From NCBI GenBank assembly GCA_951406725.2, contig OX597833.1:70184001-70248000 (forward strand): DNA of 64,000 nt, given 5' to 3'. The notes beneath the pieces are model-generated. The model was not told where the DNA came from and ran no database searches. It worked only from the letters and a program-made list of their open reading frames with translations. Of this stretch, positions 246-60,100 are shown one piece after another. The translations under genes and the position numbers were made by a program. This DNA comes from Octopus vulgaris. Its lineage: Eukaryota. Position 1 is the first letter of the stretch; every line of letters starts with the position of its first letter.

Positions 246-3200
246 CTATAAAGAAATACAAACATAAAAACATGAATGGAATGGTTTATGACACAGAAAT
301 TATTTCTGCGAATCTATGTGAAGATATTGGTGATTATTTTGAAAAGTTCTGCAACAAATTGTACGTTTTTGTGTGTATCTGTTTGTATGTTGGTATGTTT
401 GCATACATGCATACACACAACATACATACACACACAACATGCACACACACAGACACATACCATACACACACACATATATATATATGTATGAAAAGGCGGC
501 GAGCTGGCAGAAACGTTAGCACGCCAGGCGAAATGCTTAGAGGTATTTCGTCTGCCGTTACGTTCTGAGTTCAAATTCCGCCGAGGTCGACTTTGCCTTT
601 CATTTTTTCGGGGTCGATAAATTAAGTACCAGTTACGCACTGGGGTCGATGTAATCGACTTAATCCGTTTGTCTGTCCTTGTTTATCCCCTCTGTGTTTA
701 GCCCCTTGTGGGTAATAAAGAAATATATATATATGTATGAGACTGGATTTTTTCTATGTGTGCGTGAGTGTATCTATGGCTCTACTTTTTTCGATATCCC
801 TCTGTTAAATACCATATTTTATTTTTACTAGGGAAAAGTTTCAAATTCACTTCGAAATTTTGACTATTTCGCTTTCATCAGTTAGTAACTTCTCTTTGTT
901 TTCCACGTCTTGTTACATATCAAAATTCAAGAAGTCTTTGGACAAATTCCTTTAAACCAAAATTCAAGAAGTCTTTGGACAAATTCCTTTAAACCAAAAT
1001 ATTCAAGAAGTCTTTGGACAAATTCCTTCAAACAGTCCCGGACAAACCACCCACACCCAGATATGTCTCCGCAAACCATAACTCTCTGCTCGAATGGGCC
1101 TTGGTGCCCAAATCCTGAATTGAAAGACTTCGCCAGGTGATGCTATTAAGTTAGACATGGCTTGGTCCAATACTGGACAAAACCTTTCTAAGTTATTCTA
1201 AGTTATATCCCTATTTGTAAATGAGTGTATTTTTTAGAGCGAAGAAGCTAGTTCACATAAGTAGATGCTGAATAAATTAAAAGGCTTGAAGTATTAACGA
1301 TATTATATTTACAGTAAGTTCAGTAGGTTAGTCAAAGAGTAGGAAACATGAAGCTATTCCGTGATACGAAGAGAGAGTATGAAGCCATACAAATTTAGCA
1401 AGGTTTGTTTTTTACTTTGTTTGAATTGTTGAGGAGATTTTCGAATCAATACTACATGGATGCTTTGGGACTTCAATGAAATTATATATTTTGTAAGTGA
1501 GGTATCTTTAATCTTGTTTCGGTTTCAAAACGTGTGCGTATGTTGAGGGTAACGACGTTTTAAGCAGACTGGCAGTTAAATCTATTATATACCGTAAGAG
1601 ACTGCAGCTGGTGTAATGGCATTGGCAGTAATTGTTGCGTTACATATTATGTTACTGACGAGGCAATTTATATCTAGACCGCAGATTTTTTTTGGAAGGG
1701 TGGAGAGCTTGGTGAATAGCTTGAATTTTAATACGCAGATAATTTCTGGTGCTTCTAATTATCAATAGACTATTCAAAGTTCCTAGCTGCAAAATATATT
1801 TCCAATCATCTTTCGAACTTTGTCGATATGTACGATCCTTCTGATGACGAGATGAATGGGAGAACTTAGAAGCTTCTGGAATAAGTCACAGTAGAAGCCA
1901 GTCTCTTTGATCAGCTCTGACACGCCTCAGTATAAAGCAAGCTTCTGGCTGTGCGGTGGGAGATTTCTACGAAGATGGAAAGAAAGGAGCAAGATATGCC
2001 TTTCTACTCTAGGTGCAAGGCCCAAAATTTGGGGGGTGGGGCCAGTCAATTAGATTTATTGTCCCTGAAAGGATGAAAGGCAAAGTCGACTTCAGCGGAT
2101 GTGAACTCAGAACATAAAGACAGACGAAATACCACTAAGCATTCCCCCCAGTGTGCTAAAGTTTCTACCAGCTCACCGCCTTGAAAGGAGCAAGATATTG
2201 AGAATGGTAAGATTTATGTAGAATTATTCAGTGCCAGCGTTGTTTTACATGGGATTGCGCCGTTTTGATGGAGTTTCTGGCAGTCATTTGACTAGTGCCG
2301 TCAGATACTGAATGTGTGGTCCACATCAATATATATATATATATGAATGTATGTATGTATTATGCACATATGTGCATAATATGTGCATTGAACTGGGCGC
2401 CACTGCGTGGTGCCAAGGACTCCAAATTTGCCATCAAGATGTAGGACAAGATACTGCAATAGCCTGGGCTTCAGAGGTCCACAGCTCTTCAATATCCTCC
2501 CGAAGGACCTGAGAGACCTGCATGGGGTGGATGTAGGTGTCTTCAAAATAAAGCTGGACCTCTTCCCGTCAGGTGTCCCAGATGAACCAACTTCACGGCA
2601 GGAGGTGCAGATGAGGGCAGCTGCATCAAACTCTCTCATGCACCAAATGTCAATTGCTAAAAATCATTCGTGAAGTAAAATCATGTAGCAACACCGAATG
2701 GCGGTGCCCCAACATGGCCACAGCTCGTGAGCTGAAACTAGATGAAAAACAAATATGTATGCATGTATGTACACTGGTGGGAGTTCGAACAGATAAATAT
2801 CTATATGTCTGTATATATGAATATACACCTGCTCACGTATATGTCTGTGTTTGTTGTGTTTGTTCAGAAAATGACTTACCTTTTGTCTATAAGTTGAAAC
2901 ATATGTTCTGTTCGAATTGGCATTATCTTTTCGGTTAAACTTCCAGGGTTTACAAGGCTTTTAAATGCATTACTACAAAGAAAATATGAAGCAGATCAAA
3001 AATGATGTAAATTCACTGAGGAAAGTTCCAAAGCAAACCAAAAGAACAAATATACAAACGTATACATATACTTAAAAACAGGTACCTGGGTCTTGTTCAA
3101 AACTTTGCCTGCGCTAGCGAAGATTTTCGCTCAGCGCCCTGTGTGTATATATGTATGTATGTTATATGTAGGCAGATTATGTCACAAGATCACCATTGTG

Positions 3201-57100: not shown

Positions 57101-60100
57101 TATGTGTATGTGTGTGTGTTTGTGTGTCTGTGTTTGTCCCCCTAGCATTGCTTGACAACCGATGCTGGTGTGTTTACGTCCCCGTTACTTAGCGGTTCGG
57201 CAAAATGACCGATAGAATAAGTACTGGGCTTACAAAAAGAATAAGTCCTGGGGTCGAGTTGCTCGATTAAAGGCGGTGCTCCAGCATGGCCGCAGTCAAA
57301 TGACTGAAACAAGTAAAAGAGTAAAGAGTAATATCATTTTATTTTTCAACAGTAGGGTGCAAAATAATATATATTTTTGTATACTTCCATTTTATTTATA
57401 TTCCATTAGTCTTCTACATTGATCGGATCCCCAAAATTAATCTTGCGTAGCACATCCGCTCCTATACTTAGTAGATGTAAGGCATCCTAAATCGTATTTC
57501 AGCAAGTTTAAAGTGATTTTCTTTTTGTGGCGTAAACCATTTACTATTTCTGTGGTGCTTCCCCTTCCCTTTATCTCTTAAGCACGTGCTTATTTTGATC
57601 AATGATTTATGCAGCCTTGGGTGTACAAAGCCGTCACTAGCAAGCGAGTATCTCCCGTACCATCTTTTGCTACTTGTTTTAGGTGTCCATGTAGTCACAA
57701 GTATCGTCACATTCTCTTCATCTTCCCAGCTTCCACCCAGTGATACATGGAGGATGTGACAGCGCTAAAAAAAGAAGGCTACACTCCTGTCGGCTGGTAC
57801 TCATTTCCAGCGAAATGAATTGGATATACCTTTTCTCAGAGGTACACTGTGCCTCCATGTCCAAGAGGGGGCCCCACAATCTTATGATAGTTATCTCAAC
57901 GCCCAGCACCGCTAGGGTATGGAAAGTAATGTAGTTTGTTGGTTATAAATAAGTGAACAGAATATACAGCATGTGTGTGTGTGTGTGTGTGTGTGTGTGC
58001 GTGCGTGTGCGTGTGTGTGTGTGTTTCATTTCAAAAATTTATGCAAAATGTATAAATAATTGAACTTTTGTCATTTTAGTCGAGGATTCAAAAAGCTGGT
58101 GTCGCCCGGCGGCTGGGTTGACAAGACGATGACCGTTGGAGTAGCAGGAATGTTTCAACTGATATACAAAGGGTAAGTTGCTTTTGCATACATACTCGCA
58201 TACACAGACACACATGTGCACATAATATACATATATATGAAACATATAAATACATGTACATATCTCTGAAGAGCAGAAGGGTTGTCTATAAATGCTTATC
58301 AATACAGGATTTCATTATAGGGACAAGTCTTCTGCGAAACGATCGTAAGATGCTTTAAATAATTAATTCAAAATTTTTAAACTATCAAATTTATTTTATA
58401 CATTATATTTATATTTTTATATTTATTTATCTATATATTTTTTTAATATAATTTCTTTCACACGGGTGAATATACTCTTACTCTTTTACTCTTTTACTTG
58501 TTTCAGTCATTTGACTGCGGCCATGCTGGAGCACCGCCTTTAGTCGAGCAACTCGACGCCGGGACTTATTCTTTGTAAGCCCAGTACTTATTCTATCGGT
58601 CTCTTTTGCCGAACCGCTAAATAACGGGAACGTAAACACACCAGCATCGGTTGCCAAGCAATGCTGGGGGGGGACAAACACAGACACACAAACACACACA
58701 CACATACATATATATACATATATACGACAGGCTTCTTTCAGTTTCCGTCTACCAAATCCACTCACAAGGCATTGGTCGGCTCGGGGCTATAGCAGAAGAC
58801 ACTTGCCCAAGATGCCACACAGTGGGACTGAACCCGGAACCATGTGGCTGGTTAGCAAGCTACTTACCACACAGCCACTCCTGCGCCAAACTTTATGATG
58901 AGTTTGGATATTTATTTCCTTATATTAATAATAATAATATAATATTAAATAATACATGTACATACACATGAGATACAAACACACACGCACATATATATAT
59001 ATATATATATATATATATATAATATATTAGTTGCAAATTTTGGCACAAGGCCAGCGATTTCGGAGGAGGGGATAAGTCAATTACATCGACACCAGAGCTT
59101 AACTGGTACTTATTTTATCGACCACAAGAAAGTGAAATGCAAAGTCGACATCGGTGGCTTTAGAACATAAAGAGAGCCGAAATGGCTATAAAAATTTCGT
59201 CAGGCGTGCCGACGTTTCAACCAGCTCACCACCTTACACAGGATATATATATATTTGATCTGAATGAAACAGTTCTAGTCCTGTAGAAGATCCTTCTATA
59301 AAATAAATAAATATATATATATATATATATATATATATATATATATATATATATATATATATGTGTGTGTGTGTGTGTGTGTGTGTGTGTACGAGTGAGT
59401 GGATAAACGAAAGAAGGGCATTTAACAAATTTATTGGGAGTTACACGTATGGATCAAAATAGTTTGATACAAATTCAAAATGGCTGACGACTAGCATCAC
59501 ACCTGAAACTCAAGAGTACCAACGAATTTGAATCAAACTATTTTGATTCGTGTGTGTGTGTGTGTGTGTGTGTGTCTTGAAATATACTATACGATATATA
59601 TATACATTGAAACACTCTATACGATATATATATATATATATATATATATATATATATATATATATATATATATATGTAATAGCTGTAACTATTTTCCATG
59701 GTGAATTTGTTGACTTTGGCTTGAACTAGATAAGAATAAACTATTTATTACTGTTTCTAAATTTTCTACAGCCACCTTCATATTCCATGACTACCAAGGA
59801 TTCTGGATTATTTTTCCGTTTTTTTTTTTTTTTTTAATTAATTTTTGAGAGCGGTTGGGTTCATTTTTAGTATTCCCGTTACGTTTGTTTTTCTTTCTTT
59901 TTTTTATTTCAGTATACAGCATTGGGATTTTTCTATTGATGGAATACCTTCAAACGAATTTGCAAGGAGAAAGGTATTTATCTTTTAATACAAAGATGAC
60001 CCCTGTACTTTATTGAATCATATTGTACTTTATTGTACTCACTAACGTTCTTTTTTTCGTATTCCTCGAGTTCTGAGCGTTTCCTCACGTCTGTGACGTA

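What the first reader, a model, noticed from the sequence alone, without database searches (positions are those of the whole stretch)
2966..58086. Head-to-head lipoxygenase pair with opposite predicted stereochemistry (Ala vs Gly at the Coffa-Brash site)
Seen: LOX-A reads AIN-FN-A-FKSLV (codon GCA, 2966-2968, -) and LOX-B reads [11 protein letters not shown] (codon GGA, 58084-58086, +). Both are residue 403, aligned to human 5-LOX Ala410 by the same offset as H360/H365 to H367/H372. Known: Ala at this site generally marks S-LOX and Gly marks R-LOX (12R-LOX, coral 8R-LOX), with exceptions. Inference: a duplication with exon structure fully conserved gave divergently transcribed enzymes making different, possibly mirror-image, oxylipins from one locus.
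Basis: partly seen in the sequence, partly recalled or inferred. Interest (0 to 1): 0.8.

Follow-up and report, generated by a model that had tools for sequence, protein, structure and literature searches.

The report
Ala/Gly junction in octopus lipoxygenase cluster
Two intact octopus genes for fat-oxidising enzymes sit back to back inside a six-gene cluster and differ at one residue that likely shifts where oxygen is added to the fatty acid, which is a real but ordinary arrangement and likely not a matched mirror-image pair.

Summary
LOX-A (669 aa, minus strand) has Ala403 (GCA) and LOX-B (671 aa, plus strand) has Gly403 (GGA). Both have open 15-exon frames and all iron ligands, and the site aligns without gaps to soybean LOX-1 Ala542 and coral 8R-LOX Gly427. 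The two genes are not a duplicate pair. They are where a block of three Ala genes meets a block of three Gly genes in a six-gene cluster, and four more Ala genes lie on another contig. They are 60% identical, and an AU test rejects them as sisters (p 8e-12). The site flips often (at least 13 changes among 130 homologues), and mixed clusters occur in limpet, scallops, whelk and, by the literature, humans. The switch moves oxygen to the other end of the pentadiene (8R versus 12S), so the products would be regioisomers, not enantiomers. LOX-B has the Arg-Gly motif of fish enzymes that make mainly 12S despite Gly. The odder feature is LOX-A's remodelled pocket exon and a Glu369Gln change seen only in Octopus. 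Expression and products were not tested.

The parts
185..13906 (-). LOX-A, coding exons 1-10 of 15 (13906-13421, 11913-11869, 11230-11102, 10531-10434, 8943-8811, 6958-6863, 4741-4645, 3607-3490, 2972-2880, 245-185); exons 11-15 lie left of the window (G000:C20:70183473 down to 70179420). 669 aa, PLAT plus lipoxygenase domain, Ala type
   Evidence: model equals P0007; PF01477, PF00305; model pLDDT 92.7; TM 0.87-0.88 to 5-LOX and 8R-LOX
2966..2968 (-). LOX-A Ala403 codon GCA (Coffa-Brash site), preceded by Asn402
2880..2972 (-). LOX-A exon 9 (residues 401-431): switch residue, invariant Leu407 and a remodelled stretch (G412S, W413L, D415E, G421R, G424H against the family consensus)
3490..3607 (-). 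LOX-A exon 8: iron ligand His365 and Gln369, where 149 of 165 aligned rows have Glu
13907..41665 (.). 27.8 kb between the two start codons; 42% is covered by repeats with 3 or more hits in the DNA fetched. Both ATGs follow a pyrimidine tract and AG two bases upstream, which suggests untranslated upstream exons; transcription starts are unknown
41666..63041 (+). LOX-B, coding exons 1-13 of 15 (41666-42151, 44292-44336, 48054-48182, 50129-50226, 53264-53396, 54676-54771, 55484-55580, 56626-56743, 58080-58172, 59913-59973, 60709-60814, 61616-61707, 62859-63041); exons 14-15 lie right of the window (G000:C20:70248602-70249898). 671 aa, Gly type
58081..58086 (+). LOX-B Arg402-Gly403 (CGA GGA): Coffa-Brash Gly in an RG motif
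56626..56743 (+). LOX-B exon 8: His365 and Glu369 kept; the conserved Arg377 is Ile

Best explanation
LOX-A and LOX-B are two intact lipoxygenase genes that face apart where a block of three Ala-type genes meets a block of three Gly-type genes in a six-gene octopus cluster, and they likely add oxygen at different carbons of the fatty acid rather than making mirror-image products. Shown: open frames, iron ligands, the Ala/Gly difference, the cluster order 1(+,Ala) 2(+,Ala) A(-,Ala) B(+,Gly) C(-,Gly) D(-,Gly), and separate clades. Inferred: both bind the fatty acid tail-first, because both keep Lys184 at the place of 8R-LOX Arg182 and a small Ser at the place of Ala589. With Gly, LOX-B would let O2 reach the carboxyl-side end of the pentadiene and give an 8R-type product, probably mixed with 12S as in Arg-Gly fish enzymes. 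With Ala and Leu407 shielding that route, LOX-A would give only an S product, at a position that its remodelled exon 9 makes hard to predict. The head-to-head orientation is likely a by-product of duplications and inversions in the cluster.
For: Cluster of six genes on C20 and four on C10, with switch residues A,A,A,G,G,G and A,A,A,A. Identities 60% (A-B), 78% (A to the Ala neighbours), 75% (B-C). dS 1.09 for A-B against 0.45-0.54 and 0.32 within blocks; dN/dS 0.22 for A-B. Ala clade 100/99 support and AU p 8.3e-12 against A+B as one clade (21 rows); the same split in trees of 131 and 39 rows. At least 13 Ala/Gly changes among 130 rows. Mixed Ala/Gly in 6 of 12 same-species, same-contig-length groups examined. 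Regioisomer rule and the roles of Arg182, Ala589, Leu431 from PMC13059375. Lys184 in 113 of 133 rows including A and B; Ser567 in both; mapping to 8R-LOX through P0002.
Against: No product was measured. Substrate orientation is inferred from two aligned residues, one of them mapped through a poorly conserved stretch of a pairwise alignment. Three Arg-Gly fish enzymes make mainly 12S, so LOX-B's main product could be S. LOX-A departs from the family at 15 of 116 conserved sites and may not be an ordinary dioxygenase. Expression was not examined, and no full LOX-B protein from this species appeared in three protein searches.
Confidence: 0.55

Rival explanations
1. Both enzymes make mainly S products: LOX-B is an Arg-Gly exception like the fish enzymes (12S major, 8R minor), so the Ala/Gly difference only trims a minor R share.
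For: LOX-B has Arg402-Gly403. Three fish enzymes with this motif give 8R:12S of 15:85, 21:79 and 43:57, and Arg to Ile raises the 8R share (PMC10531496). The two solved coral R enzymes have Ile-Gly and Leu-Gly instead.
Against: Arg-Gly is the norm in the invertebrate homologues (88 of 91 Gly rows), and R-type products such as 8R-HETE are widely reported from marine invertebrates (recalled, no call). The fish enzymes are distant relatives.
Confidence: 0.2
2. LOX-A is no longer an ordinary dioxygenase. It acts as a hydroperoxide isomerase, or as a weak enzyme, on hydroperoxides made by the Gly-type neighbours, like human eLOX3 (Ala) downstream of 12R-LOX.
For: LOX-A keeps all iron ligands but changes 15 of 116 conserved sites, 14 at the same positions in the O. 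bimaculoides orthologue. Gln369 occurs in 12 of 165 rows, all Octopus Ala-clade. Exon 9 differs at 20-21 of 31 residues from its Ala neighbours against 21-22% elsewhere. The eLOX3/12R-LOX precedent is described in PMC13059375, PMC4556770 and PMC3840004. A Glu376Gln mutant of human 5-LOX is recalled as inactive (no call).
Against: No sequence signature of isomerase activity was tested. The recalled 5-LOX mutant was not found in two literature searches. The same Gln is in six of the seven Ala genes, so it is not special to LOX-A. Fast change of exon 9 also occurs between other Ala-type pairs (maximum ratio 3.0 among 161 background pairs).
Confidence: 0.13
3. One reading: the two divergently transcribed genes are a co-regulated pair that make mirror-image oxylipins.
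For: The Ala/Gly difference and the divergent orientation are real.
Against: Enantiomers need reversed substrate orientation as well as the switch, and both proteins keep the same entrance Lys. They are not sisters. The start codons are 27.8 kb apart across repeat-rich DNA.
Confidence: 0.05
4. LOX-B is a weakly expressed or decaying copy of LOX-C, so the pair has no joint function.
For: No full LOX-B protein of this species. The O. bimaculoides orthologue is recorded as two partial proteins and one faulty model. It has Ile for the conserved Arg377.
Against: 2,016-base open frame with canonical splice sites; dN/dS 0.30 against LOX-C and only 6 of 116 conserved sites changed.
Confidence: 0.07

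Closest known systems
Coral (Plexaura) 8R-lipoxygenase, PDB 2fnq/3fg1/4qwt, and coral 11R-lipoxygenase, PDB 3vf1
   Same: PLAT plus iron lipoxygenase fold (TM 0.86-0.88 for the LOX-A model); Gly at the switch in LOX-B; Leu one turn on; a basic residue at the Arg182 place and a small one at the Ala589 place
   Different: About 29-31% identity; Ile-Gly or Leu-Gly there against Arg-Gly in LOX-B; LOX-A has Ala; neither octopus gene model carries an allene oxide synthase domain despite the database name (Pfam shows PLAT and lipoxygenase only)
Human 17p13.1 lipoxygenase cluster (ALOX15B, ALOX12B, ALOXE3 and others)
   Same: One cluster encodes S- and R-forming enzymes (15S, 12S, 12R) and an Ala-type isomerase acting after 12R-LOX (passages of PMC4556770 and PMC3840004)
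   Different: Independent expansion (inferred; no vertebrate sequence was in my trees); no octopus enzyme has a measured product in the papers I found
Bony fish Arg-Gly lipoxygenases (N. furzeri, P. nyererei, S. formosus; zebrafish LOX1)
   Same: Gly at the switch directly after Arg, as in LOX-B
   Different: Vertebrate enzymes; whether the 12S-major behaviour carries over to molluscs is untested
Lipoxygenase clusters of other molluscs (Patella, Lottia, Nucella, Mizuhopecten, Ylistrum)
   Same: Ala and Gly types in one species on what appears to be one contig; near-adjacent locus tags in Patella and Nucella
   Different: Separate expansions in the tree; none has Gln369

Membership tests
Animal-type iron lipoxygenase | N-terminal PLAT domain plus lipoxygenase domain | tested here: met
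   Pfam on P0007 (LOX-A): PF01477 E 2e-18, PF00305 E 3e-59; PLAT on LOX-B exon 1; LOX-B catalytic part by 60% full-length alignment to LOX-A
Animal-type iron lipoxygenase | Three His, a His/Asn/Ser and the C-terminal Ile as metal ligands | tested here: met
   His360, His365, His548/550, Asn552/554 and terminal Ile in both; ligand set from PMC13059375
Animal-type iron lipoxygenase | Lipoxygenase fold | tested here: met
   LOX-A model pLDDT 92.7, Foldseek TM 0.87 to 5-LOX and 0.87-0.88 to 8R-LOX; LOX-B was not folded
Animal-type iron lipoxygenase | Dioxygenase activity on polyunsaturated fatty acids | not testable with these tools
   needs recombinant enzyme
S-lipoxygenase (LOX-A) | Ala at the Coffa-Brash site with Leu one turn later | tested here: met
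   Ala403 = soybean Ala542; Leu407 in 133 of 133 rows
R-lipoxygenase (LOX-B) | Gly at the Coffa-Brash site | tested here: met
   Gly403
R-lipoxygenase (LOX-B) | Main product has R configuration | not testable with these tools
   Arg-Gly context is a documented exception class
Sister duplicate pair | The two genes form one clade | tested here: not met
   AU p 8.3e-12, log-likelihood 161 lower
Bidirectional co-regulated gene pair | Nearby transcription starts and shared expression | tested here: inconclusive
   Start codons 27.8 kb apart; upstream untranslated exons likely but not located; no expression data
Allene oxide synthase-lipoxygenase fusion (database name) | N-terminal catalase-like domain | tested here: not met
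   669 and 671 aa models begin with PLAT; the coral fusion is 1066 aa. Upstream coding exons were not searched for by profile
eLOX3-like hydroperoxide isomerase (LOX-A) | Isomerase activity with little dioxygenase activity | not testable with these tools
   Only the Ala and the cluster context are shared

The most novel reading that the evidence does not exclude
In the Octopus lineage one lipoxygenase switched to Ala, expanded to seven genes on two contigs, lost a near-invariant active-site Glu and rebuilt its pocket exon; LOX-A has become a hydroperoxide isomerase that converts the products of its Gly-type neighbours, an independent invention of the two-step 12R-LOX/eLOX3 pathway of mammalian skin.
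Probability: 0.1. Interest if true: 0.65.

Novelty: new member of a known kind. Interest (0 to 1): 0.27.

Why it matters
As stated, little: clusters that mix Ala and Gly lipoxygenases are common, and the residue flips often. The locus is still a handy natural test set. Ten paralogues with shared exon structure, three Arg-Gly and seven Ala, would show whether the Ala/Gly rule or its Arg-Gly exception governs invertebrate lipoxygenases (88 of 91 Gly rows here are Arg-Gly), and whether an enzyme with Gln for the conserved Glu still works. I found no paper on cephalopod lipoxygenase genes or products in the listings, in a library that lacks most subscription journals.

Tried and rejected
Six-frame ORF listing and self-comparison of the window were swamped by repeats, though they gave the first exon pairs. 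My automatic splice model chose wrong junctions at LOX-B exons 2/3 and 12/13; I set them by the AG/GT sites seen, which match LOX-A's phases. The same script missed exons 7 and 13 of LOX-D, so stored protein P0106 (first 552 residues) stood in for it. A structure search with exon 8 alone gave no match, probably because I read it in the wrong frame. The careful 39-row tree did not finish and the quick tree was shown; a 21-row careful tree without the mixture model did finish. Trees used the catalytic domain with the switch column removed; P0092 (gap) and P0111 (Glu) were left out of the 131-row tree, P0090 (Ser) was not counted among the changes, and 21 redundant or partial Octopus records were left out of the 133-row alignment. 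A search of the intergenic DNA for low-copy matches to paralogue upstream regions found nine short matches and no shared promoter-like block. Positive selection was considered and not shown: raw pN stays below pS in exon 9 (0.37 against 0.45), and the C10 paralogues' dN/dS of 1.1-1.7 is not significant (Fisher p 0.22-1.0). Two searches for the recalled 5-LOX Glu376Gln result found nothing relevant in their listings. Two look-ups of earlier findings returned nothing. Expression remains open: no RNA data were examined.
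Full report
Observation. The window is G000:C20:70184001-70248000. The two codons are as reported: GCA at 2966-2968 on the minus strand and GGA at 58084-58086 on the plus strand. I fetched the flanks and built spliced models. LOX-A has 15 coding exons and 669 residues, and equals stored protein P0007, which the sources name an Octopus vulgaris protein. Its five unseen 3' exons are intact. LOX-B has 15 exons and 671 residues with AG/GT at all junctions and the same phases; 14 of 15 exons have the same length as in LOX-A. 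Both keep His360, His365, the HAxxN His and Asn, and a terminal Ile. Pfam gives PLAT plus lipoxygenase. An AlphaFold model of LOX-A (pLDDT 92.7) matches 5-LOX and coral 8R-LOX at TM 0.87-0.88. LOX-B was not folded.

The site is the right one. LOX-A residues 351-403 align without gaps to soybean LOX-1 490-542, and Ala542 is the switch residue in PMC13059375 (passages). The Gly of P0002, a relative 67% identical to LOX-B, aligns without gaps to the Gly of coral 8R-LOX and 11R-LOX.

It is not a pair. The region holds six lipoxygenase genes: LOX-1 (+), LOX-2 (+), LOX-A (-), LOX-B (+), LOX-C (-), LOX-D (-), between 70.11 and 70.47 Mb of C20; four more lie on C10. The switch residues are Ala, Ala, Ala, Gly, Gly, Gly and, on C10, four Ala. 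LOX-A is 78% identical to LOX-2 and to LOX-1's orthologue, LOX-B is 75% identical to LOX-C, and A and B are 60% identical. Synonymous distance is 1.09 between A and B, 0.45-0.54 among the C20 Ala genes and 0.32 between B and C. Trees of the catalytic domain without the switch column put all seven Ala genes in one clade and B with C and two Argonauta proteins. Forcing A and B with their orthologues together costs 161 log units, AU p 8.3e-12. Exon structure is shared across the cluster: LOX-2 matches LOX-A in 15 of 15 exon lengths, LOX-C in 14 of 15, and the distant LOX-D in 9 of the 13 exons the script recovered. The start codons are 27,759 bases apart across DNA that is 42% repeats; untranslated upstream exons are likely, so promoter distance is unknown.

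It is common. The site changes at least 13 times among 130 homologues. Of 12 groups of proteins that share a species name and a contig length, 6 hold both Ala and Gly types: Patella, Lottia, Nucella, Mizuhopecten, Ylistrum and Antedon (shared contig is inferred from the length, adjacency from locus tags for Patella and Nucella only). Human ALOX genes at 17p13.1 include 15S, 12S and 12R enzymes and eLOX3 (PMC4556770, passages), and eLOX3 carries Ala (PMC3840004, passages). The Ala clade was seen only in Octopus records; the three Argonauta proteins found are all Gly, which is weak evidence of absence. A Gly-to-Ala change at the base of the clade is likely but not certain, because the unnamed sister group is mixed.

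Mechanism. [quoted passage not shown] Mirror-image products would need reversed substrate binding as well. Both proteins keep Lys184, at the place of 8R-LOX Arg182 that lies near the substrate carboxyl, Ser at the place of Ala589, and Leu407, so I infer the same tail-first binding. The expected difference is therefore in position. A second caution: LOX-B has Arg402-Gly403. PMC10531496 section 12 and Table 7 (section read whole, table as a passage) report three fish enzymes with this motif that give 57-85% 12S-HETE, with the rest 8R; Gly to Ala raises 12S and Arg to Ile raises 8R. The two solved coral R enzymes have Ile or Leu before the Gly. Against carrying the exception over, Arg-Gly is the rule in these invertebrate homologues (88 of 91 Gly rows), and 8R products are widely reported from marine invertebrates (recalled). 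My best reading is an 8R-type or mixed 8R/12S product from LOX-B and an S-only product from LOX-A (0.55).

What is odd. LOX-A departs from the consensus at 15 of 116 sites conserved in 90% or more of 111 non-Octopus rows; the background median is 3 and the maximum 12, though that background is biased low because those rows shape the consensus. Five departures lie in residues 412-424 of exon 9, and 14 of the 15 positions are also changed in O. bimaculoides. Exon 9 differs at 20 of 31 and 21 of 31 residues from LOX-1 and LOX-2 against 93 and 89 of 417 elsewhere (p 2e-6 and 2e-7), but at only 3 of 31 between B and C. Comparable ratios occur in the top few of 161 background pairs, and raw pN stays below pS, so positive selection is not shown. 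Gln369 replaces Glu in 12 of 165 rows, all Octopus Ala-clade. I recall that the matching Glu376Gln mutant of 5-LOX is inactive, but two searches did not find it. This leaves room for an eLOX3-like isomerase role (0.13), for which the precedent is described in PMC13059375 (passages).

Results against my reading and limits. No activity or expression data were obtained. LOX-B has no full-length record for this species in three searches and only partial or faulty models in O. bimaculoides, although its frame and dN/dS of 0.30 argue for function. No vertebrate or coral reference was in the trees. Literature: searches showed no paper on octopus lipoxygenase genes or products (listings only). PMC11593649 and PMC9787790 were searched for terms and gave reference entries only. 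Supplements were not read; Figure S6 of PMC10531496 holds the Arg-Gly alignment that I took from the text.

Verdict. A correct observation of a known switch in an ordinary, expanded gene cluster. The special-pair and mirror-image readings are not supported. New member of a known kind; interest 0.27.

Noticed in passing
G000:C20:70112383-70133641 (L023, L024, L020), left of the window: LOX-1, an Ala-type paralogue, has Arg for iron ligand His365 and a frameshift at the start of exon 3 in this assembly, while its O. bimaculoides orthologue P0006 has His: a probable pseudogene or assembly error.
   Followed up: partly
G000:C10:2440373-2869171 (L041-L072): Four recent Ala-type paralogues (dS 0.02-0.03 among the three compared; dN/dS 1.1-1.7, not significant). 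Two have Asp for the Asn ligand, one has a frameshift in exon 14, they depart at 19-21 of 116 conserved sites, and their first exon matched only weakly or not at all.
   Followed up: partly
window 2880-2972 and the matching exon of the paralogues: Exon 9 is hypervariable among the C20 Ala genes (17-21 of 31 residues differ) and conserved between the Gly genes (3 of 31). Among 161 background pairs the median ratio is 1.05 for 37 Ala-Ala pairs and 0.61 for 117 Gly-Gly pairs.
   Followed up: yes
alignment of 165 rows: The residue before the switch goes with it: 88 of 91 Gly rows have Arg there, but only 28 of 70 Ala rows. Rows are related, so this is not an independent count.
   Followed up: partly
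window 41666-63041: LOX-B has an intact frame, but no full-length protein of this species turned up in three protein searches; it may be unannotated.
   Followed up: partly
window 13907-41665: Many SINE-like repeats and simple repeats typical of this genome; not classified.
   Followed up: no
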